Source of the DNA: a virus
Strand: one strand, 5' to 3'
IMG/VR virus record: IMGVR_UViG_3300045242_000006
Coordinates: 33,287-97,286 of that record
DNA: 64,000 bases
Shown: piece by piece, positions 6,035 to 16,419 of the stretch
How the letters are laid out: each line of letters begins with the position of its first letter
Position numbering within the stretch: position 1 is the stretch's first letter
Program-made: the position numbers and the translations under genes
The notes under the pieces: model-generated
Told to the model about the DNA's origin: nothing
The model's input: only the letters and a program-made list of their open reading frames with translations
Database searches by the model: none

Positions 6035-7501
6035 TTATGCGTTATTTGCAGCAGCATTGTCTCTACCAGAAGCTGTCTTACTTGCACCATTACCACCACC
6101 TGCTGCCATTCCGTCACCTGCTTGGCTATCGCCTCCCATGATTTCTTTCTTGTCAACTGGTTCGTCGTCTTTCTTAGGTACAACTTTGATTGCTTCACGG
6201 ATCTTGTTCGCCATTGGACGGTCAAGCTCAAGAGCACCAACACTACCCATACGTTGAATAGCTTTAGAGAACTCATCCAAATCAACTTCGTCAAGATCAC
6301 CATACTGCAACTTAGGCAGTTCTTTTGCTGTCAGGATTTCTCCATTCAATGCAAAGAGTTGTGGGACAAGATCGTTGTTGAGTGTGTCTTGAATCTCTTT
6401 AAGGCGGGCTTCAATAGCCATCGCCATAATGTTTGTTTTAGCACCAGCTAGAGAGTAACTACCAACTTGATCTTGACCCATCTTCAACATATCAGCAAAC
6501 AGCACCATCAGGATTTTGTTATCCCAACGCTTAATGATTGTATCAGTGTCGTACATCTTCCCACCTTGGGTGGAAGTCAGTTCAAACTTGAAGAGAGGTT
6601 GACGGCTTTCTGGGTCGAAAGCTTGTGGCAAAATCAAACCAGATTGCTCGTTCATTTGGATGTTACGAATGACGTTCTTGTAATACTCAAAGATTGCCTT
6701 CTCAGAATCACTAGCGTCTTCGCTCATATAGCGTGGTGGGAGATACAAGGTTGGCATACCGTTCATGTCACGTGTGACACCAATAGCTTCTTGTTCTTCA
6801 ATCTGTCTACGGAAGAGCCAAGCATTGTAGCAACCACGAAGAGGGCTGTTGCCTTCTGGGTTGTCACGCTTTGCATCTACACGGAACAGCATAAACTTCT
6901 TACGTGGGATCTGGATAATACCATCAGAATTCAATGTGACGACATTCATGTAGCGGTCACCGTTCTGGATGCCCGCCAGATTCTGCTCACAGCCAATTAG
7001 GTCACGCCCGTCATCACTGAACACCCAGCGGGAGATTGTGTCCTGAGAGCGAACAGGGAGCTTCTTGATGCCAATCTTGTTGTCATTGTAAGAAGAGCCA
7101 GCATCAAAGGTACGACGACGATAAACCTTTTCATGAACAGAGAAGCCATATGTGTACATGCTTGTCACTTCACGAATGAAGTCTTCGAAGCTGTGGTCCA
7201 TGTCGTGGATAACAGACTCAAGGAATGCACCACGGGCTTTCATTGCTGCATCAGGCTCTACGCCCAGATCAACAGTCCAATCAACTCTTGCAATCATCAT
7301 CTCAACGAGAGAGATAGCAGCTTTGATTGTAGCGTCTTGTGCCATAGTGCGGAAGGTGTGACATGCTTGTGGGAATCGAAGCTCACGTCTGTTCTCTTCA
7401 GCAATAAAACCACTGTATTGTTTTAGTCCGACTGTCCCCATTTCTCCAAGACGAAGACGCGGCATCGGAGCAGCAACTTTCTCAACTTTTCTCTTAGCCA
7501 T
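6035..7501 (-). CDS. Portal protein
   Basis: 488 aa after TerL; YGFSVHEKVY and NPEGNSPLR motifs. Confidence 0.9.
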   Translation of the reverse strand: MAKRKVEKVAAPMPRLRLGEMGTVGLKQYSGFIAEENRRELRFPQACHTFRTMAQDATIKAAISLVEMMIARVDWTVDLGVEPDAAMKARGAFLESVIHDMDHSFEDFIREVTSMYTYGFSVHEKVYRRRTFDAGSSYNDNKIGIKKLPVRSQDTISRWVFSDDGRDLIGCEQNLAGIQNGDRYMNVVTLNSDGIIQIPRKKFMLFRVDAKRDNPEGNSPLRGCYNAWLFRRQIEEQEAIGVTRDMNGMPTLYLPPRYMSEDASDSEKAIFEYYKNVIRNIQMNEQSGLILPQAFDPESRQPLFKFELTSTQGGKMYDTDTIIKRWDNKILMVLFADMLKMGQDQVGSYSLAGAKTNIMAMAIEARLKEIQDTLNNDLVPQLFALNGEILTAKELPKLQYGDLDEVDLDEFSKAIQRMGSVGALELDRPMANKIREAIKVVPKKDDEPVDKKEIMGGDSQAGDGMAAGGGNGASKTASGRDNAAANNA

Positions 7502-7515
7502 TAATATCCGCCTTC

Positions 7516-8985
7516 TTATCTATAAAATGCAAATGGGTTTGCCTGTGTCATTACTGGGATGGAGAAGTCAGGAAGATATTGTTCAGAAGACAATGCATGG
7601 AATGCATCAGACGTGGCGTCTACTTGGTCATCTTTAATATTCTTGCTACCATCGAAACGTTCAAGTTCCATTAGATAGTCCTTAGTCCAGTCAGCCTCAA
7701 TAACCTCAACTGACCCAGCTTCACATGTTGCAGCGAAGGGAGCGAATCGAGTGACTTTGGATTTGTTTGTTTGTTTCATACGAGCATAGAAACCATGATC
7801 AGCCAAGTCACGAATGAGTTGAGCAGCATAAGCTTTACCGGCAGCACCGGGATCGCATGGAACGATAATTTGAACATCATCACCATCGTGTCTTGCAGTT
7901 TCAAGAATCATATCGAATACACCACCATGGCGGCGGCGATCACGAACAACATCTTCAACTGTAAAAATTCCCATCTTATTTCTGCTCATGAGAACACCAG
8001 CAGTCCAGTCAGGGTTACGATTGGTTTCAGATTCGACAGTGCCGCTGATATCCCATGCACGGACACGCTTAATAGAAGCAATGTCTCGTTGAGTTACCAT
8101 ATTGCACCAACTAGATTTGAAGTAGCCTGTGCCTTCAGCACGTGCTAACCAGCTTCCATATAGTAGACGTTCTTTCTCAACACGACCAAGACCTTCTAAC
8201 CAACCAACATATTCAGGTTGAGCATTACAAAGGATTGGGTTATCGTAAACGTTGGCTGCAATGAATTTGAAGCTGAGGGGTTTAACTTGGTTCTTATGAT
8301 CTATAGATAGATGCGGCTTACCATACTTCTCAATCAGTTCCTCTCTCGACTCACCCCACATCATCTTACCATCTTGTTTCAGGAAGTAGCGCATAACACC
8401 ATCACGTTCAGGAATAGGAATTCCTGTTTCTGGGTCAAGCCACCAATCCAACCAATGACGTAGGAAACTACCATAGTCAGGGTTACAAGTGATTTTCATA
8501 TGAGGTTTAACTTCAGGACATTTAGGATTACGCATACGAGAAGTGAGGTATTCAACCATCATCTCTTCGAACTGTTGTCCCTCGTCCACGAGGAATTGAC
8601 TTACTTCCCAACCCTGAAAGTTTTCTTGGTCTTTTGGGTTTTCGAAGTGACGGAGATAAATCTTAGCTCCGTTAGAGAAGGCGAAGTGGTGTTCTTTATC
8701 ACGCCATCTTACCTTTGGATCAATGAGCTTAAAGAGTTCTTCGGCTTTCTCTTGGAGTCCGCCCGGACCTTTAAGTTGTGGTGTAGTACGTCTTACCATA
8801 CAACCACGGAATTTTGGATATTGGACATGTTTAAGGAAGTCCATAACTCCTAAGTAACTTTTACCAGCTCCAGCAGCTCCACCAAATACTGTGATGTCCG
8901 CTTCGCTGTGCATGAAGTCATATTGTTTCTGCGACTTTGGCCCGATAACGTTAGGGTCCAAGTCAAAGACCATATCGTCAGCCAT
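7516..8985 (-). CDS. terL: Terminase large subunit
   Basis: Walker A GGAAGAGKS, VDE, TCNP, nuclease DDQVDA; start moved to MADDMVF (GAGG RBS). Confidence 0.95.
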   Translation of the reverse strand: MADDMVFDLDPNVIGPKSQKQYDFMHSEADITVFGGAAGAGKSYLGVMDFLKHVQYPKFRGCMVRRTTPQLKGPGGLQEKAEELFKLIDPKVRWRDKEHHFAFSNGAKIYLRHFENPKDQENFQGWEVSQFLVDEGQQFEEMMVEYLTSRMRNPKCPEVKPHMKITCNPDYGSFLRHWLDWWLDPETGIPIPERDGVMRYFLKQDGKMMWGESREELIEKYGKPHLSIDHKNQVKPLSFKFIAANVYDNPILCNAQPEYVGWLEGLGRVEKERLLYGSWLARAEGTGYFKSSWCNMVTQRDIASIKRVRAWDISGTVESETNRNPDWTAGVLMSRNKMGIFTVEDVVRDRRRHGGVFDMILETARHDGDDVQIIVPCDPGAAGKAYAAQLIRDLADHGFYARMKQTNKSKVTRFAPFAATCEAGSVEVIEADWTKDYLMELERFDGSKNIKDDQVDATSDAFHALSSEQYLPDFSIPVMTQANPFAFYR

Positions 8986-9073
8986 TGCCTGTCCTCGTTT
9001 TAAATAAGAGAAAGGGCGTGGCCGAAGCCACATCCCTGTTTTTCTATCTAGAGAATTGCTCTCTGTGTATATT

Positions 9074-9572: not shown

Positions 9573-9647
9573 TGGAGCGGATAGGGAATTTCGAAATCCC
9601 GACGAACAGCTTGGAAGGCTGACACTCTGCCTCTGAGTTATACCCGC
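9573..9647 (-). tRNA. tRNA-Gly(TCC)
   Basis: GCGGGTATAACTCAG...CTTCCAA...TCCA. Confidence 0.9.
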
Positions 9648-9654
9648 TTTAATT

Positions 9655-9743
9655 TGGTGCCCCTAGTGAGATTCGAACTCACAACACCTTCCGGCGTGCT
9701 GGCTTCTAAGACCAGTGCGTACTGCCAATACCGCCACAGGGGC
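9655..9743 (-). tRNA. tRNA-Leu(TAG)
   Basis: Loop CTTAGAA, long variable arm, ACCA. Confidence 0.9.
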
Positions 9744-9753
9744 AAAACTTTTT

Positions 9754-9826
9754 TGGTGTGAGGCTGGGTACTGACCCCAATCCTTCGTTTCACAGACGAA
9801 GTTCCTAACCATCGAACTACCTCACC
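9754..9826 (-). tRNA. tRNA-His(GTG), degenerate T arm
   Basis: TTCGT-CTGTGAA-ACGAA; ends CCA. Confidence 0.7.
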
Positions 9827-9835
9827 ATTGTTTCT

Positions 9836-9985
9836 TTAAATCCATTCTTCTTCAGAGTGAATTTCTTCAAGTGCTTCTTTGAGGGTCTGTTTATCTAGAC
9901 TCCTCTCTTTAAAGTAAACCCTTTCACAACAACCACAAGGCATCACAGCAAACTTCTTCTTGGTTTGTTTTACTCGGACTTTCAT
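9836..9985 (-). CDS. Small 49-aa protein (MKVRVKQTKKKFAVMPCGCCERVYF...)
   Basis: AGGAG RBS; fills the gap between tRNA-Ala and tRNA-His. Confidence 0.6.
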   Translation of the reverse strand: MKVRVKQTKKKFAVMPCGCCERVYFKERSLDKQTLKEALEEIHSEEEWI

Positions 9986-10003
9986 TTCTACACTCCTATA
10001 ATT

Positions 10004-10077
10004 TGGTGGACCGTCAGGGAGTCAAACCCTGCCTTTCGCCGTGCAAGGGCGACGAACTATCGAAATTCTTACAGCCC
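10004..10077 (-). tRNA. tRNA-Ala(TGC)
   Basis: TCGCC-CTTGCAC-GGCGA, G3:U70, ACCA. Confidence 0.85.
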
Positions 10078-10186
10078 ATTATCGCGTCTACTGCCAGATG
10101 TTCCACTCCTACGCCGTAAGTGGTCGTGCTTGTGGCTGGAACGATAAGCTTGGGTATAAGCCCATATGCCACCTTTACAGTAAAAT

Positions 10187-10260
10187 TGGTCACTCGGGGT
10201 GGAGTCGAACCACCGCCACTTCGTTCCAAACAAAGTACGCTACCGTAACGCTTCCGAGAG
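10187..10260 (-). tRNA. tRNA-Pro(TGG)
   Basis: Loop TTTGGAA, GTTCGAC, ACCA. Confidence 0.88.
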
Positions 10261-10282
10261 ATAAATCATTTACATCTTAAAT

Positions 10283-10371
10283 TGGTCCCGCTTGGTCGGA
10301 ATCGAACCACGCAGCCAGAGGCAAGGCGTTTACAGCGCCCCGTAGCATCCCAGTGCTACTAGTCAATCGGG
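10283..10371 (-). tRNA. Atypical tRNA with GTA (Tyr) anticodon
   Basis: GGCG-CTGTAAA-CGCC; 6-bp D stem, ~8-bp acceptor with C1:G72. Confidence 0.65.
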
Positions 10372-10377
10372 TTTGTT

Positions 10378-10454
10378 TGGCAGGCAATAGAGGATTCGAA
10401 CCTCCCATCTTGTGATTAACAGTCACAGACCAACACCTAGTCAGATCATTGCCT
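10378..10454 (-). tRNA. tRNA-Asn(GTT)
   Basis: TGTGA-CTGTTAA-TCACA, GCCA. Confidence 0.88.
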
Positions 10455-10522
10455 ATAATTCTGATAGAGATTATATTTATACAGCACACTCTATCTGGCT
10501 GTACACGTGGGGAGCACATGTT

Positions 10523-10602
10523 TGGTAGGCCGAGTTGTTGGATTCGAACCAACGTCACCACATCTTACGTGCGGTATCCTGAGCCTCTAGACGAAACTCG
10601 AC
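10523..10602 (-). ncRNA. Atypical tRNA-like RNA (Glu-type D arm, loop CGUAAGA, extended 3' CUACCA)
   Basis: TTCGTCTAGAGGCTCAGGA D arm and canonical T arm, but G instead of U at position 33. Confidence 0.6.
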
Positions 10603-10607
10603 ATGTT

Positions 10608-10689
10608 TGGTAGCGAGTCCGTGAATCGAACACGTAAGCACTGGGATATGAACCCAGAGACAACACCAGTCAGTCTTAGCCGACTCGCC
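10608..10689 (-). tRNA. tRNA with CAT anticodon (Met/Ile2), 8/4-type fold
   Basis: GGCGAGTC/GACTCGCT acceptor, CGTG/CACG T stem, loop TTCATAT. Confidence 0.7.
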
Positions 10690-10696
10690 ATTTATT

Positions 10697-10770
10697 TGGT
10701 TGCTCGTAAGTGAATTGAACACCTCTCACTCGGTTATCAGCCGAACGCATTACCACTATGCTAACGAGCA
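10697..10770 (-). tRNA. tRNA-Ile(GAT)
   Basis: Loop CTGATAA, ACCA. Confidence 0.88.
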
Positions 10771-10906
10771 ATTTGTTTGTATCCCTGCTGGCTCTCAACT
10801 GCTTTATCTTGAGCCATTACCATCCGATCAAAGATGTATCACCTTCGTTTCCCGCAACCTTTTAAAAGCAGTAAAAGGAAGCTTCGTATCCGGCTCACAG
10901 GCGATT

Positions 10907-10981
10907 TGGTAGTCACTAGTGGGATCGAACCACTCTAAAAGGCTTCGTAGACCTTTGCCTAATCCAATCGGCCAAGCGACT
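10907..10981 (-). tRNA. tRNA-Arg(ACG)
   Basis: Loop CTACGAA. Confidence 0.88.
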
Positions 10982-10987
10982 ATTATT

Positions 10988-11061
10988 TGGTGCCCCATCA
11001 CAGAATCGAACTGCGTTCTCAGCGTTACAAAGGCCGAGTAATACCAATATACTAAAAGGGC
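10988..11061 (-). tRNA. tRNA-Thr(TGT)
   Basis: Loop TTTGTAA; C:C mismatch at the base of the anticodon stem. Confidence 0.8.
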
Positions 11062-11128
11062 GGAATTCTTAGGAGCTATAACGTGCCCGAGACGTACAGT
11101 ATTTAGGGGCTACTGTAAAGGCCAGCTT

Positions 11129-11203
11129 TGGCGGTCCTACGGAGAATCGAACTCCGTTCCCTCGCTAGACAGGCGAGTATAATAACCGTTATACGATAAG
11201 ACC
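11129..11203 (-). tRNA. tRNA-Asp(GTC)
   Basis: CTCGC-CTGTCTA-GCGAG, GCCA. Confidence 0.88.
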
Positions 11204-11207
11204 AAAT

Positions 11208-11283
11208 TGGAGCAGTTGACCGGATTCGAACCGGCGTCTTCTTGGTTGAAAGCCAAGCATCCTATCCGCTAGACGACAACTGC
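11208..11283 (-). tRNA. tRNA-Glu(TTC)
   Basis: CTTGG-CTTTCAA-CCAAG. Confidence 0.9.
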
Positions 11284-11690
11284 AAAATTCCTGCATGTAC
11301 CTTCCGATGGCAATTAGAGCAAAGGATGACACATTTTCTAATCTCTGCCTTTAACGTGTTTGTTGAGTACGTTAATAGGTTACTTGGGTTTGCATCTTTG
11401 CCAGATGGATCAGTGTGATGAAGGTCCAAAGCTACTGGCTCTTTCTCACAGCAAACCAAACATCCGAAAAATGACTTGAACCGTCTCATTAAGTTTCTGT
11501 TGTACTCTCTTGTCTCGGCATTTCTTGCTTTGATAGAGCTTCTACGATTCTCGTTTGTGACGTAACCACTATTATTCTGTGCTTTCTGACAATCACGACA
11601 CCTTGTCTGTAGTCCATCAGGCTTAACCTTATTCTTATTGAACTCAGACCGAGGCTTTAACTCATCACAGACTTTGCAGTGTTTTGTCAT
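11262..11690 (-). CDS. HNH endonuclease
   Basis: CxxC pairs, LDLHH, C.ILCSNCHRKVH. Confidence 0.85.
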   Translation of the reverse strand: MTKHCKVCDELKPRSEFNKNKVKPDGLQTRCRDCQKAQNNSGYVTNENRRSSIKARNAETREYNRNLMRRFKSFFGCLVCCEKEPVALDLHHTDPSGKDANPSNLLTYSTNTLKAEIRKCVILCSNCHRKVHAGILQLSSSG

Positions 11691-11812
11691 TTGCCGCTGA
11701 CAGGGTGTTTGTCTTTGCGGGCTTTGTTCGGATGACGACCTTTGCTATCTTTCAAGCGAGTCTTATCAACCGGAGTGTGTTCTTTTGTTGCATCGTATGG
11801 ACGTTGTGCCAT
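11687..11812 (-). CDS. Small basic 41-aa protein (MAQRPYDATKEH...)
   Basis: AAGGAG RBS; ATGA overlap with the HNH gene; TTGACA promoter at ~11846-11874. Confidence 0.6.
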   Translation of the reverse strand: MAQRPYDATKEHTPVDKTRLKDSKGRHPNKARKDKHPVSGK

Positions 11813-11904
11813 TTCGTTTCTCCTTAATGTCTAGTTCATATGAGTATTTAAACACGACAATTGTACATTGTCAAGCGTTTATTTAAAATTATTTGCACTA
11901 TCTT

Positions 11905-11979
11905 TGGTAGACCTGCTTGGGATCAAACCAAGACTAACTCTTTAGAAGAGAGTTGTGCGATTCACTACACTACAAGTCC
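11905..11979 (-). tRNA. tRNA-Arg(TCT)
   Basis: ACTCT-CTTCTAA-AGAGT. Confidence 0.85.
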
Positions 11980-11985
11980 AATGTT

Positions 11986-12058
11986 TGGCGGGCACCCTTC
12001 GATTCGAACGAAGCTGGAAGTGATTTGGAGTCACGACTGGTCGCCAAGACCGACACCC
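11986..12058 (-). tRNA. tRNA-Trp(CCA), atypical D arm
   Basis: GTGA-CTCCAAA-TCAC, GCCA. Confidence 0.7.
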
Positions 12059-12065
12059 CTTAATA

Positions 12066-12195
12066 CGGTTGCAAGTGAGGAAGGATTTGAACCTTCTCAT
12101 TGTGAGGCGCATGCTTCCTCAGTGACGAAATCAAACAGAAATCCTTACCTCTATTCCGGGTTACGCTCCCGCTCTACTCCCATAGTCACTTGCAA
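12066..12195 (-). ncRNA. Expanded-cloverleaf tRNA-like RNA
   Basis: 10-bp terminal stem TTGCAAGTGA/TCACTTGCAA, T arm GAAGG-TTCAAAT-CCTTC, four further hairpins; promoter TTGACG-N17-TATAAA just upstream. Confidence 0.6.
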
Positions 12196-12295
12196 ATTCG
12201 AAGGAGACATTTATAACACGCAGTCTCCAGTGCGTCAATCAGAGAGTTGGTTTCTCTGTCACATCCCAAGGCGCTTGAAGCTTCAGGTTGTTCTG

Positions 12296-12850
12296 TTAGT
12301 AACCGTATCCATCGAATGGATTAGCGGTTACAGCTAAAGGTGCAAAGCCCATGCTCTGGAATTTATCAGTTGTAATCTTCCAGCCGAGACGCACCCTCAA
12401 ATCTTTCGTATCAGACCAAGGCTTAACAAGGTAGTACTCAAATCCTACAAGCTTGTCTCCATCTTTGAGCTTGGAGAGCATATACCCCGGCACTTTAACC
12501 TTATCAGAGATATCAGGGTTTCCTGTCGTCTCAATTGTAAACGACTCTGACCAAGATAGTCCAGTCATTTTTGAATATCCGTACAAGGGATTCCTGAACA
12601 TCCAGAATACTCTATTTACGTAACCTTTGATGCCAGTCGTTTCATTTACGAACGGTGCACGCGTAGTGACATATCCTTCATCACCTTGTGGTGGGTTGTC
12701 ATAGGTTCCCCAGATCCAGCCCCACGTGTACTCAGACTTATCATGGTCTTGCTCTCTTGTAAAGGCAGCAATGACTGGTGCTGTAAATGGTACAGTAAGT
12801 GTTAGGATAATGTCCAGTACAGAAAGTACAAACCACTTCAGATAAATCAT
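12296..12850 (-). CDS. Hypothetical membrane-associated protein in tRNA cluster
   Basis: Start MIYLKWF (GAGG RBS); the longer track ORF runs through tRNA-Gln; W.FRNP.YG motif. Confidence 0.75.
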   Translation of the reverse strand: MIYLKWFVLSVLDIILTLTVPFTAPVIAAFTREQDHDKSEYTWGWIWGTYDNPPQGDEGYVTTRAPFVNETTGIKGYVNRVFWMFRNPLYGYSKMTGLSWSESFTIETTGNPDISDKVKVPGYMLSKLKDGDKLVGFEYYLVKPWSDTKDLRVRLGWKITTDKFQSMGFAPLAVTANPFDGYGY

Positions 12851-12865
12851 AAATACCTCTTTGTT

Positions 12866-12940
12866 TGGCAGCGGGTGAAAGGATCGAACTTTCGTAACTG
12901 GATTCAAAGTCCAGCGCCTGTGCCACTCGGCCAACCCGCA
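12866..12940 (-). tRNA. tRNA-Gln(TTG)
   Basis: CTGGA-CTTTGAA-TCCAG. Confidence 0.9.
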
Positions 12941-12946
12941 ATTAAT

Positions 12947-13020
12947 TGGTGCTCAATGAAGGAATTGAACCTCCGTCTGCTGCGTGTAAAGCAGCGGCCC
13001 TACCATTAGACGAATCGAGC
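12947..13020 (-). tRNA. tRNA-Val(TAC)
   Basis: GCTGC-TTTACAC-GCAGC. Confidence 0.9.
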
Positions 13021-13026
13021 TTTGTA

Positions 13027-13103
13027 TGGTTGGCCCTCTGAGATTCGAACTCAGAACATTCTCCTTTTGAGAGAGACGCGACTACCAATTGCGCCAAGGG
13101 CCA
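13027..13103 (-). tRNA. tRNA-Leu(CAA) lacking the long variable arm
   Basis: TCTCT-CTCAAAA-GGAGA. Confidence 0.8.
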
Positions 13104-13123
13104 TCTGTTTGGTGTTTCTAATT

Positions 13124-13236
13124 TGGTACGACAAGTAGGAATCGAACCTACTATACATCAGCCGCTAAGCTGATCTTAATGAGCAAAAGACCTATACCAC
13201 GCCTATAGGAAGTTTCGAACCCTCCACAACTTGTGT
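13124..13236 (-). ncRNA. Expanded-cloverleaf tRNA-like RNA ending ACCA
   Basis: T arm GTAGG-TTCGATT-CCTAC plus four hairpins. Confidence 0.6.
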
Positions 13237-13255
13237 CTCATCTTGCCGTATTGTT

Positions 13256-13349
13256 TGGCGGGTAGCAGAGGAGTCGAACCCCATCCGGCTCTCGCCAGAA
13301 CCTAGTTTTCAAGACTAGTCGCAGGACCAACCCCGCTGCATTACTACCC
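13256..13349 (-). tRNA. tRNA-Ser(TGA), 8/4 fold
   Basis: GGGTAGTA/TGCTACCC acceptor, 4-bp T stem, loop CTTGAAA, long variable arm, G73. Confidence 0.85.
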
Positions 13350-13473
13350 ATAAATTTTAGAGGTTCAACTTGGGACTTGTACCCCTGCCGGACTAATGCG
13401 TCATTCCGAGTGCGACCAGACCGCGAACCCTCACGTCTGTGCAGTTTTCTTATGGGTTGCGACCCCATCATCT

Positions 13474-13561
13474 TGGCAGTAGATACAGGATTCGAACCTG
13501 TGGGACTTTTACATCCTATGGTTTAGCAAACCACTGCAATCGGCCTCTCTGCCAATCTACT
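13474..13561 (-). tRNA. tRNA-Ser(GCT)
   Basis: Loop TTGCTAA, variable arm, GCCA. Confidence 0.9.
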
Positions 13562-13566
13562 ATATT

Positions 13567-13641
13567 TGGTTGGACGACTGGGAATCGAACCCAGCATGTT
13601 CGGATTAAAAGTCCGATGCCTGACCGCTTAGCTTCCGTCCA
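13567..13641 (-). tRNA. tRNA-Lys(TTT)
   Basis: TCGGA-CTTTTAA-TCCGA. Confidence 0.9.
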
Positions 13642-14127: not shown

Positions 14128-14325
14128 TTAATTTTCTTTAATTGGCATTGGACCAGTCACACCATTAACTGGATATCGTCCGCACACATATTCTCTTTCT
14201 GTATATGAATTGTATACAAGATTTCTGCACACACTACAAAGGTCTTCTTCTTTATGTGCGAGCTTATTCCAAGAGGGTGTATCATTATTTAGTAAAGGTA
14301 CATCGCAAGCTTTGCAACGACTCAT
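14128..14325 (-). CDS. Small Zn-ribbon protein
   Basis: CKAC...CSVC. Confidence 0.65.
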   Translation of the reverse strand: MSRCKACDVPLLNNDTPSWNKLAHKEEDLCSVCRNLVYNSYTEREYVCGRYPVNGVTGPMPIKEN

Positions 14326-14409
14326 TATTAGGGTTTCCTTGTATTGGTTATTTATTCATACAATCTCCTTATATTCATTAGGTTAGGTGGTTGTATGTGT
14401 TGGTTAGTG

Positions 14410-14731
14410 TACTTGATCTGCTCATGACGCTGAGTTTCGTATTGGAAGATAGAATTACCCTAAGAAACGCCATACAGAAAAATCTGCCTAAGACGTAACT
14501 AAGGTTCTATCTTCCACACATCTCATGACGCTTGAGATCGTGATTGGCCTGCATGGGCAGGAGTCGATTGCTCGACAGATTCTGATCATTCCACCTTTCG
14601 GCGTCACCGCTACGCTTTAACCAGATTAGAACTCAGCTTGCCCAGTAGCACTCTCTTCATAGGCGTCCATCCCGAGGGACTTCCTGATGGCCGGTGAGTG
14701 GTGCTTTCGCAGACATATCTCTCCATCAGTT
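14410..14731 (-). ncRNA. Large structured non-coding RNA candidate
   Basis: No ORF; three GNRA hairpins, a 12-bp helix, duplicated loop motif; promoter immediately upstream. Confidence 0.6.
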
Positions 14732-14736
14732 TTTCC

Positions 14737-14797
14737 ATACTATCATGACAAATCTACCAAGTCAACCCCTTGACAAAAGCGGATTGTATGGTACTAT
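14737..14797. promoter_or_regulatory. Back-to-back divergent sigma70 promoters
   Basis: Minus: TTGACT-N17-TAGTAT. Plus: TTGACA-N16-TACTAT. Marks the strand switch. Confidence 0.75.
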
Positions 14798-15654: not shown

Positions 15655-16419
15655 ATGGCAAAGCGTAATCAAGCAAAGGTGATTGGAAAGCGTTGGGAAG
15701 AAAAAGAAACTAAAGGTCGTGAAGTCAAACCTAAGTTTGAAGCAGCCCGTGAAGAAGGCCGCACACAACACGATACAAAGCCGCTACGCCCACGTAATGA
15801 TAAACAAGCACGCTACATCCAGTCTATCAACGAAAACCCTCTGACGATTGCCACAGGCTACGCAGGGACTTCTAAGACGTACATCCCAACTGTCATGGCA
15901 TGTGATGCCTACCTCAAAGGTGAGATTGACAAGATTGTGTTTGTTCGTCCTAATATTTCCAATAGTAAATCTCTTGGCATGTTTAAAGGGTCAGCTGTTG
16001 AGAAGATGGAAATGTGGCTGATGCCTGTAATCAACATCCTGAAAGATCGTCTGACTCCGGGTGGACTTGAAACAGCCATTGAGAATGGTAACATTCAGTA
16101 TGTTCCACTTGAGGTGCTGAAAGGCTTCTCTGCTGAACGTTGTTTCTTTATTGTTGACGAAGGCGAGGACATTAACCAAGAAGAAGCCAAGAATATCGTT
16201 ACCCGTCAAGGTAAAGATTGCAAGATGGTGATTAGTGGTGATGTAAGCCAGAGTGCATTGAAGTCTCATAGCGGTCTGAAGATGCTTACAAATATGGCGG
16301 AACGCCACAGCAATTTGCAGATTGGTTTTATCGACTTCAACCATGTAAATGACATCGAACGATCTGAGGCTTGCAAGCAATGGATCATCGCCTTTGAGAA
16401 AGATGAACGGGAGGTATAA
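15655..16419 (+). CDS. phoH: PhoH-like ATPase
   Basis: GYAGTSKT, VDEG, SGD..QS motifs. Confidence 0.9.
   Translation: MAKRNQAKVIGKRWEEKETKGREVKPKFEAAREEGRTQHDTKPLRPRNDKQARYIQSINENPLTIATGYAGTSKTYIPTVMACDAYLKGEIDKIVFVRPNISNSKSLGMFKGSAVEKMEMWLMPVINILKDRLTPGGLETAIENGNIQYVPLEVLKGFSAERCFFIVDEGEDINQEEAKNIVTRQGKDCKMVISGDVSQSALKSHSGLKMLTNMAERHSNLQIGFIDFNHVNDIERSEACKQWIIAFEKDEREV

What the first reader, a model, noticed from the sequence alone, without database searches (positions are those of the whole stretch)
14410..14731. ~330-nt structured RNA with duplicated kissing-loop motif upstream of terS/tRNA operon
Seen (minus strand, starting right after TTGACT-N17-TAGTAT): no ORF. 5' helix CUGAUGG(14723-29)/CCAUCAG(14684-90). 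GNRA hairpins UGC-GAAA-GCA (14702-11), CGCC-GAAA-GGUG (14592-603) and GUCGA-GCAA-UCGAC (14563-76). Long-range UGGGCA/UGCCCA pairing and a perfect 12-bp helix (14443-54 with 14505-16). Two copies of CCAAU(C)ACGA...CUCA-(A)GCGUCA-UGAG, 100 nt apart (hairpins at 14421-34 and 14521-37). Their GCGUC(A) loops are complementary to two upstream segments, UGACGC (14601-06) and GACGC (14663-67). The GNRA loops read correctly only on the transcribed strand. Established: large phage RNAs near tRNA or packaging genes (GOLLD, ROOL) and phi29 pRNA assemble through loop-loop contacts. Inference: a new large ncRNA or cis-regulatory switch, possibly oligomerising. The UGACGC target overlaps a GNRA stem, which would allow two conformations.
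Basis: partly seen in the sequence, partly recalled or inferred. Interest (0 to 1): 0.8.

Follow-up and report, generated by a model that had tools for sequence, protein, structure and literature searches.

The report
New pseudoknotted twin-hairpin phage RNA
This stretch encodes a real, roughly 320-base folded RNA of a family not catalogued anywhere, present twice in each related Pseudomonas phage genome examined (therapy phages such as PaP1 included), and its oddest feature is two short hairpin motifs that stay identical within each RNA while differing freely between phages.

Summary
Window 14410-14731 (minus strand) lies just after a sigma-70-like promoter and folds into 15 helices. On 43 relatives, 88.8% of cells pair, against 74.5% when shuffled and about 40% when slid. 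Sixty of 86 pairs show compensatory changes.

I add a pseudoknot (14645-50 with 14608-13).

No Rfam family matches in three divergent members. No paper found describes the RNA.

The family is broad. It occurs in Otagovirus and Flaumdravirus (61 records), Pakpunavirus (over 120 records), and many viral and metagenome contigs. All 11 complete genomes checked hold exactly two copies, each behind one arm of back-to-back promoters.

The two 8-14-nt motifs flanking a long receptor-bearing hairpin are identical in 54 of 55 RNAs, yet fall into at least 20 sequence classes. I found no complement that covaries, in the RNA or in the genome. The adjacent zinc-ribbon protein does not track the motif.

Best reading: a new early phage RNA with a rigid pseudoknotted core and two equivalent sites for one outside partner. 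The mechanism is unproven.

The scan had already noted this RNA in other genomes (e1-1963376 and others).

The parts
14737..14765 (-). Sigma-70-like promoter TTGACT-N17-TAGTAT (with TG) that drives the RNA; -10 and -35 are conserved in relatives
14770..14797 (+). Divergent partner promoter TTGACA-N16-TACTAT (back-to-back pair)
14410..14731 (-). The structured RNA (A-type copy). The conserved core is about 14421-14729. The 5' end is inferred from the promoter; the 3' end is unknown
14684..14729 (-). P1 domain: P1 14723-29/14684-90, GAG/CUC 14719-21/14696-98, invariant strands AGAGAUAUGUC (14712-22) and CACUCACCGG (14691-700), and a variable capping hairpin 14702-11
14668..14680 (-). Extra small hairpin GUCCCUCGGGAU, present only in this phage
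   Evidence: gap in all 20 relatives
14581..14664 (-). Pseudoknotted core: helix a 14661-64/14640-43; pseudoknot b 14645-50/14608-13; helix c 14618-25/14581-88; hairpin d 14592-603; invariant AUGAAGAG, AAGCUGAG and GGAAUGA
14548..14576 (-). Hairpins e (14563-76) and f (14548-61), both with compensatory changes
14517..14542 (-). Twin hairpin 1; variable motif V1 = AGCGUCAUGAG (14522-32)
14443..14516 (-). Long hairpin H: the 12-bp helix, inner helices, and an internal loop resembling the 11-nt tetraloop receptor (GUC-UUAG-G / U-AU-GGC, 14487-94 and 14469-75)
   Evidence: receptor likeness by reading, not tested
14421..14434 (-). Twin hairpin 2; V2 = (A)GCGUCAUGAG, identical to V1
14372..14420 (-). 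G-poor, CA-rich spacer after the RNA
14348..14370 (-). Conserved SD plus a 3-codon mini-ORF (ATG AAT AAA TAA)
14128..14325 (-). 65-aa zinc-ribbon protein (phrog_10364), the first gene after A-type copies in many relatives
9573..13641 (-). 19-tRNA array on the same arm, followed by terminase large subunit (7516-9033) and portal (6035-7501)

Best explanation
This is one of two copies per genome of an undescribed family of about 300-nt phage RNAs.

Shown:
- It has a conserved two-domain fold. The 5' part is a double-pseudoknotted core with invariant joining strands. The 3' part is a long hairpin H carrying a receptor-like loop, bracketed by two hairpins.
- The loop and 3' arm of those two hairpins (motif V) are identical within an RNA and vary between phages.
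- Each copy lies just after the leftward promoter of a back-to-back promoter pair.

Inferred:
- Host RNA polymerase transcribes it, probably early in infection.
- It acts as an RNA.
- The core is the constant working module, for binding or catalysis.
- The two V hairpins are two equivalent sites read by one partner outside the RNA. That partner could be a protein or a short trans nucleic acid and differs between lineages.

The most likely outcome is one of two: control of read-through or expression of the operon it heads (like put or nut), or cutting at both sites to release H as a small RNA of about 100 nt.
For: - Structure: 88.8% paired against 74.5% shuffled; 60 of 86 pairs have double changes; 0 of 500 shuffles reach this.
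- Pseudoknot b-b' is kept through at least 12 different helix sequences.
- The family is broad.
- All 11 complete genomes hold two copies, each with its own V pair.
- Both copies in this genome sit at back-to-back promoters.
- V1 equals V2 in 54 of 55 RNAs, with at least 20 classes. Single-base variants appear in both copies together.
- The flanks next to V keep copy-specific differences, which argues against simple gene conversion.
- No cis complement covaries with V.
- G-U pairs show that the hairpins are RNA-level.
- The B-type copy and Pakpunavirus copy B are followed within about 10 nt by another promoter. The RNA is therefore a discrete module.
Against: - There is no direct evidence of a transcript or of its ends.
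- No partner for V was found. The adjacent zinc-ribbon protein is identical in phiPsa374 and PE09, although their V motifs differ.
- The two copies share V in Pakpunavirus but not in Otagovirus. This weakens the idea of one reader per genome.
- In the distant subfamily V is not clearly in a hairpin.
- PAK_P4, whose record was annotated with RNA-seq, has no ncRNA feature called at this locus.
- A 300-nt double pseudoknot is far more elaborate than the known put or nut sites.
Confidence: 0.4

Rival explanations
1. Riboswitch-like sensor. The invariant pseudoknotted 5' core binds a small molecule or ion, and the 3' module with its repeated segments is the expression platform.
For: The single-stranded stretches are invariant across very distant members. 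The RNA sits in a leader position before an SD and gene in A-type copies. Repeated segments are typical of switch platforms.
Against: The 3' module is as conserved as the core, unlike usual expression platforms. No terminator or SD-sequestering alternative was found. Some copies are followed by a separate promoter. No anti-V strand exists. No Rfam aptamer matches.
Confidence: 0.15
2. Self-processing ribozyme. The core cuts or joins at the two identical sites, excising or circularising H. It might be related to group I introns.
For: The fold is complex and pseudoknotted with invariant strands. AGAGAUAUGUC and GAGACUAC(A) resemble the group I S and R elements, and L025 reads UCAGAGACUACA. H carries a UAUGG receptor-like loop, and GNRA loops are present. 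Identical sites flanking a structured RNA fit excision.
Against: No Intron_gpI or other ribozyme model hits in three members. The S-like element precedes the R-like one, the reverse of the group I order. There are no exons, because the RNA starts at a promoter. An invariant core cannot read a variable V by base pairing, and no covarying guide was found.
Confidence: 0.15
3. Anti-defence decoy. The RNA mimics a host RNA substrate or antitoxin, such as a type III ToxI-like repeat or a CRISPR-repeat-like hairpin. V tracks the host system that is being countered.
For: It appears to be an early, promoter-proximal RNA. V is hypervariable and paired. The whole RNA module has been swapped between near-identical genomes: phiPsa374 and PE09 have flanks 94-99% identical but RNA 74-86%. 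Extra V copies occur in some lineages. It sits in a counter-defence neighbourhood according to scan note e1-4038250.
Against: The large core is conserved across hosts. V is only 8-14 nt. No ToxN or Csy4 family gene is in the phage, and the ToxN control did not ring. No host sequences were compared.
Confidence: 0.12
4. One reading: an intramolecular kissing-loop switch or an oligomerising RNA, as in GOLLD, ROOL or pRNA.
For: The complementary hexamers do exist in this one sequence. UCAUGA within V is a palindrome.
Against: The pairings do not exceed shuffled controls. The proposed targets lie in other covarying helices. Most V classes contain no palindrome. No model of those families matches.
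Confidence: 0.05
5. DNA-level element. The V repeats are iteron- or operator-like protein sites at a replication origin or control region.
For: Repeats that are identical within a replicon and differ between replicons are typical of iterons. The cumulative GC-skew minimum coincides with the copy A locus. Distant members lie next to helicase genes.
Against: GC skew also follows the direction of transcription. The hairpin arms use G-U pairs and covary on one strand only. There are only two repeats. The rest of the element is clearly an RNA structure.
Confidence: 0.05

Closest known systems
HK022 putL/putR antiterminator RNAs
   Same: Two copies per genome, each just downstream of an early promoter at the head of an operon, with structure-dependent RNA elements.
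   Different: put is about 70 nt with two stem-loops, no pseudoknots and no twin variable motif. Action on RNA polymerase is untested here, and some copies are followed by their own promoter.
Lambda-family nut sites (boxA/boxB with N protein)
   Same: Hairpin loops are identical within a phage and differ between related phages, and they lie in early leaders.
   Different: There is no boxA in the RNA (by reading). The hairpins are embedded in a 300-nt fold and occur twice within one RNA. The two copies share V only in Pakpunavirus. No N-like reader was found.
Group I intron core
   Same: A pseudoknotted core, S- and R-like sequence strings, a UAUGG receptor-like loop and GNRA loops.
   Different: No model match, permuted order of the two strings, no exons and no identifiable P4-P6 or G-binding site.
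Large phage-associated RNAs of unknown function (GOLLD, ROOL)
   Same: A large, ornate, phage-borne RNA close to tRNA genes.
   Different: No sequence or structure match. It is much smaller (about 300 nt against 500-800 nt) and has a different architecture.
PAK_P3 ncRNA1/ncRNA2 (Chevallereau 2016; PMC10914365) and T4 RNA C/D
   Same: Abundant small phage RNAs in the same kind of genomic position, near the tRNA genes and ahead of terminase.
   Different: nhmmer finds no similarity to the PAK_P3 loci. Those RNAs are processed 3'UTR products without their own start site (PMC10914365).

Membership tests
Any Rfam 15 family | Covariance-model match at or near the gathering score | tested here: not met
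   Only tRNAs reach the gathering score in the window. The best E-value hits are 0.22-0.37, to eukaryotic miRNA and scaRNA models, in three members.
GOLLD / ROOL / phi29 pRNA | Match to RF01998, RF03087 or RF00044 | tested here: not met
Group I intron | Core recognised by RF00028; P7 G-binding site; P1 guide with U-G at the splice site | tested here: not met
   No hit at E up to 10. The GUC/GAC pairing is invariant, so it cannot be tested by covariation.
Group I intron | Interrupts a gene, with flanking exons | tested here: not met
   The RNA begins 6-8 nt after a promoter -10 element, and no ORF is split.
HK022 put | Copies downstream of both early promoters | tested here: met
   Two copies in each of 11 genomes. 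In this genome both lie behind back-to-back promoters.
HK022 put | About 70-nt two-stem-loop RNA that makes RNA polymerase terminator-resistant in cis | not testable with these tools
   The size and fold differ. Function needs read-through assays.
Lambda nut/N | boxA consensus next to the boxB hairpin | tested here: not met
   No CGCUCUUUA-like string in 14404-14736 (reading).
Lambda nut/N | Same hairpin in both early leaders of one phage | tested here: inconclusive
   The two copies share V in Pakpunavirus (AUCUGCAU) but have different V in all 10 Otagovirus-like genomes.
Type III antitoxin (ToxI-like) mimic | Tandem 34-45-nt repeats processed by a ToxN-family nuclease | tested here: inconclusive
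   The repeats are 8-14 nt and flank an approximately 74-nt long hairpin H (14443-14516). No ToxN gene is in the phage, but the control search rang nowhere. Host genomes were not examined.
Mini-CRISPR array / repeat mimic | 28-37-nt repeats; Cas6/Csy4-type hairpin | tested here: not met
   The repeats are too short and the 'spacer' is conserved. No Csy4 is present.

The most novel reading that the evidence does not exclude
The RNA is a self-contained programmable device. An invariant, catalytic or protein-free core uses the paired variable motifs as specificity elements, for example guide-like or splice-site-like sequences. These would direct excision or circularisation of hairpin H, or recognition of a trans nucleic acid. 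If so, this would be a new class of ribozyme or RNA-guided element spread across many phages.
Probability: 0.12. Interest if true: 0.95.

Novelty: categorically new. Interest (0 to 1): 0.78.

Why it matters
Large RNAs with intricate conserved folds and no known job are rare, and they have repeatedly led to new biochemistry. This one is present twice in every related genome checked, including widely used Pseudomonas aeruginosa therapy phages (PaP1, PAK_P1/2/4, PaoP5, K8) and kiwifruit-canker biocontrol phages (phiPsa374).

Its position behind early-type host (sigma-70) promoters suggests it is made early in infection, though no transcript has been shown.

It also carries a feature not described for any RNA class I know of: two short motifs held identical within each RNA while diverging between phages. 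That feature gives a clean genetic test, namely changing one copy, both copies differently, or both the same way.

Working out its role could expose a new layer of early phage gene control, RNA processing or counter-defence. It would also improve annotation of over 200 phage genomes, where the region is left blank or filled with spurious small ORFs.

Tried and rejected
- **Rfam:** gathering and E-value scans of the window and of two distant members gave nothing meaningful.
the kissing and long-range pairings do not exceed shuffled controls.
- **Cis complement of V:** the only recurrent signals were V itself (a palindrome in some classes) and the H apical stem in at most 8 of 21 classes.
- **Trans complement or extra V copies:** searches of this genome and of 10 other complete genomes gave only chance-level 8-9-mers.
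- **Pairing between the two copies:** a 7-nt match in this genome has no counterpart in PE09, Bobbio or Kremar, whose B copies lack that hairpin.
- **Phage-encoded partners:** no reverse transcriptase, Ro60-like/DUF2828, ToxN or Csy4 in the genome. Two of these controls did not ring, so they are weak.
- **PAK_P3 ncRNA1/2 and its helicase-leader RNA:** not homologous by nhmmer.
- **Zinc-ribbon protein as the V reader:** rejected, because the protein is identical while V differs.
- **RNA as a general divergence hot-spot:** true only for phiPsa374 against PE09. Other pairs show the RNA as conserved as its flanks or more so.
- **Sequencing runs:** only contigs were available. A relative is present at word depth about 400 in a wetland metatranscriptome run, but contigs run past the promoter, so transcription and RNA ends are not shown.
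- **Literature:** searches found no description of this RNA.

Full report
**What is in the window.** On the minus strand, a sigma-70-like promoter (TTGACT-N17-TAGTAT, 14765..14737) stands back to back with a plus-strand promoter at 14770..14797.
- About 320 nt follow without a conserved ORF.
- After that come a G-poor CA-rich spacer, a conserved SD with a 3-codon mini-ORF, and a 65-aa zinc-ribbon gene at 14128-14325 (phrog_10364).
- Further along the same arm lie small ORFs, 19 tRNA genes (9573-13641), terminase large subunit and portal.
- 'terS' as such was not found.

**Is the structure real?** The single-sequence fold is only mildly better than shuffles: z = -2.3, against -2.0 for the other strand. 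The comparative evidence is decisive.
- blastn finds the stretch in 61 phage records at 68-84% identity. Annotators there call nothing, or inconsistent small ORFs on either strand.
- RNAalifold on 21 sequences gives 50 pairs, 24 of them with compensatory changes.
- I wrote a hand-curated 86-pair model onto a 43-sequence alignment that includes much more distant members.
  - It gives 88.8% paired cells, against 74.5% in shuffles and about 40% when partners are slid.
  - Sixty pairs change on both sides, and 0 of 500 shuffles reach any measure.
- Many positions are G-U pairs, which fit only the transcribed strand.

**The fold.**
- P1 (14723-29/14684-90) encloses the invariant strands AGAGAUAUGUC and CACUCACCGG, and a variable capping hairpin.
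- Helix a is 14661-64/14640-43.
- Helix b (14645-50/14608-13) lies in the loop of a and pairs into the multiloop closed by helix c (14618-25/14581-88). This makes a double pseudoknot.
  - Helix b is kept through at least 12 different sequences.
- Hairpins d, e and f follow.
- Next comes twin hairpin 1, then a long hairpin H (14443-14516), then twin hairpin 2.
  - The internal loop of H resembles the 11-nt tetraloop receptor. That is my reading and was not tested.

- UGGGCA does not pair with UGCCCA. It pairs locally with GCCU, and this pair covaries (GCC/GGC against GGG/CCC).
- The loop-target 'kissing' pairs and the long-range helix together reach 50.5% pairing, against 49.6% in shuffles.
- A scan for any segment complementary to the variable motif found none shared across its 21 classes.

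**Reach of the family.** I scanned public collections with a pattern drawn from the invariant strands, then filtered the hits with nhmmer.
- Close relatives turned up, plus intermediate forms that prove to be Pakpunavirus (PaP1, PAK_P2, PAK_P4, K8, PaoP5 and others; 124-178 records).
- A distant subfamily also appeared in viral, metagenome and a few MAG contigs. It keeps the 5' core and the scheme of 'motif, long hairpin, same motif'.
  - These copies often lie next to a DNA helicase gene.
- No Rfam family matches any of three divergent members.
- Papers on PAK_P3 and PAK_P4 transcriptomes describe other ncRNAs but not this one (PMC5563952, PMC10914365).
  - PAK_P3 ncRNA1/2 are not homologous.
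  - The PAK_P4 record leaves the locus unannotated.
- Earlier notes of this scan had seen the same RNA in other genomes. One follow-up (e1-1963376) also called it an undescribed pseudoknotted leader RNA.

**Two copies per genome.**
- This genome has a second, B-type copy at G000:C1:13793-14066(-), outside the window. It too lies behind the minus arm of a back-to-back promoter pair.
- All 11 complete genomes assembled from fetched regions hold exactly one A-type and one B-type copy.
- The B copy here and Pakpunavirus copy B are followed within about 10 nt by another TTGACA-N17 promoter. The RNA therefore behaves as a discrete module.
- Copy A sits at the main point where transcription diverges, which is also the cumulative GC-skew minimum.

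**The twin motif.**
- The 8-14 nt that form the loop and 3' arm of the two hairpins are identical within an RNA in 54 of 55 sequences (here AGCGUCAUGAG).
- They nevertheless fall into at least 20 classes.
- Single-base variants occur in both copies together: AGCGUC, AGUGUC and AGCUUC; AUCUAC and AUCUGC; AACAGA and AACACA.
- The nucleotides just 5' of the motif keep stable copy-specific differences. Plain gene conversion is therefore unlikely, and selection for identity is the simpler reading.
- The two copies share the motif in Pakpunavirus but not in the ten Otagovirus-like genomes.
- I found no complement elsewhere in 11 genomes beyond chance, and none in the partner copy.
- The zinc-ribbon protein that follows A-type copies is identical in phiPsa374 and PE09, whose motifs differ. 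It is not a sequence-specific reader.
- Those two genomes are 94-99% identical in the flanks but only 74-86% in the RNA, so whole RNA modules are exchanged. This is not a general rule.

**Interpretation.**
- Firmly supported: a new, widespread structured phage RNA that works at the RNA level.
- Inferred: early transcription by the host polymerase, a constant core as the working module, and twin hairpins as two equivalent sites for one external partner.
- The outcome could be put/nut-like control of the operon, or excision of H.
- The riboswitch, ribozyme, decoy and DNA-site readings remain open, with the weights given above.
- The kissing-loop model is disfavoured.
- No transcript evidence could be obtained. 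Metatranscriptome contigs hold a relative but do not show transcript ends.

Noticed in passing
window 14348-14370 (-): A strong SD (AAGGAG) with a 3-codon mini-ORF (ATG AAT AAA TAA) lies just ahead of the real SD and start of the zinc-ribbon gene. A mini-ORF of 2-4 codons is kept in most Otagovirus relatives.
   Followed up: partly
window 14372-14420 (-): A spacer of about 50 nt that is nearly G-free and CA-rich, with AAC/ACA repeats. It resembles a Rho-loading site or an Hfq/Crc A-rich site.
   Followed up: no
G000:C1:13793-14066 (-), outside the window (L287 4794-5067): The second, B-type copy of the RNA has a different twin motif (AUUUAGGAUA). It has its own back-to-back promoters, and another promoter follows directly after it.
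   Followed up: yes
window 14668-14680 (-): An extra small hairpin GUCCCUCGGGAU between P1 and helix a is found only in this phage.
   Followed up: partly
L032 8254-8603 and L272; L060/L024 (Pakpunavirus copy B): Some lineages carry an additional partial hairpin, or a third copy of the variable motif, inside or after twin hairpin 1.
   Followed up: partly
L289 (PE09), L291 (Kremar), L197: B-type copies are followed by an ORF with a VYIGRGSxWGNPF motif (DUF4326-like by memory; not scanned).
   Followed up: no
L001 versus the PE09 genome: phiPsa374 and PE09 are 94-99% identical around the locus but only 74-86% in the RNA. This indicates modular exchange of the RNA.
   Followed up: partly
window 11262-11690 (-): An HNH endonuclease ORF sits inside the tRNA array. 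A PhoH-like gene lies at 15655-16419(+) on the divergent arm.
   Followed up: no
L036 6388-7833 (-): A distant family member lies about 1 kb upstream of a Ro60-like (DUF2828/DUF7788, phrog_850 'RNA-binding protein') gene. No such gene is in this genome.
   Followed up: partly
L285 (PAK_P3 85,248-85,458): PAK_P3 ncRNA1 occupies a comparable position, ahead of the tRNAs and terminase and followed at once by a promoter. It contains a GUAUGGC string but is not detectably homologous.
   Followed up: partly
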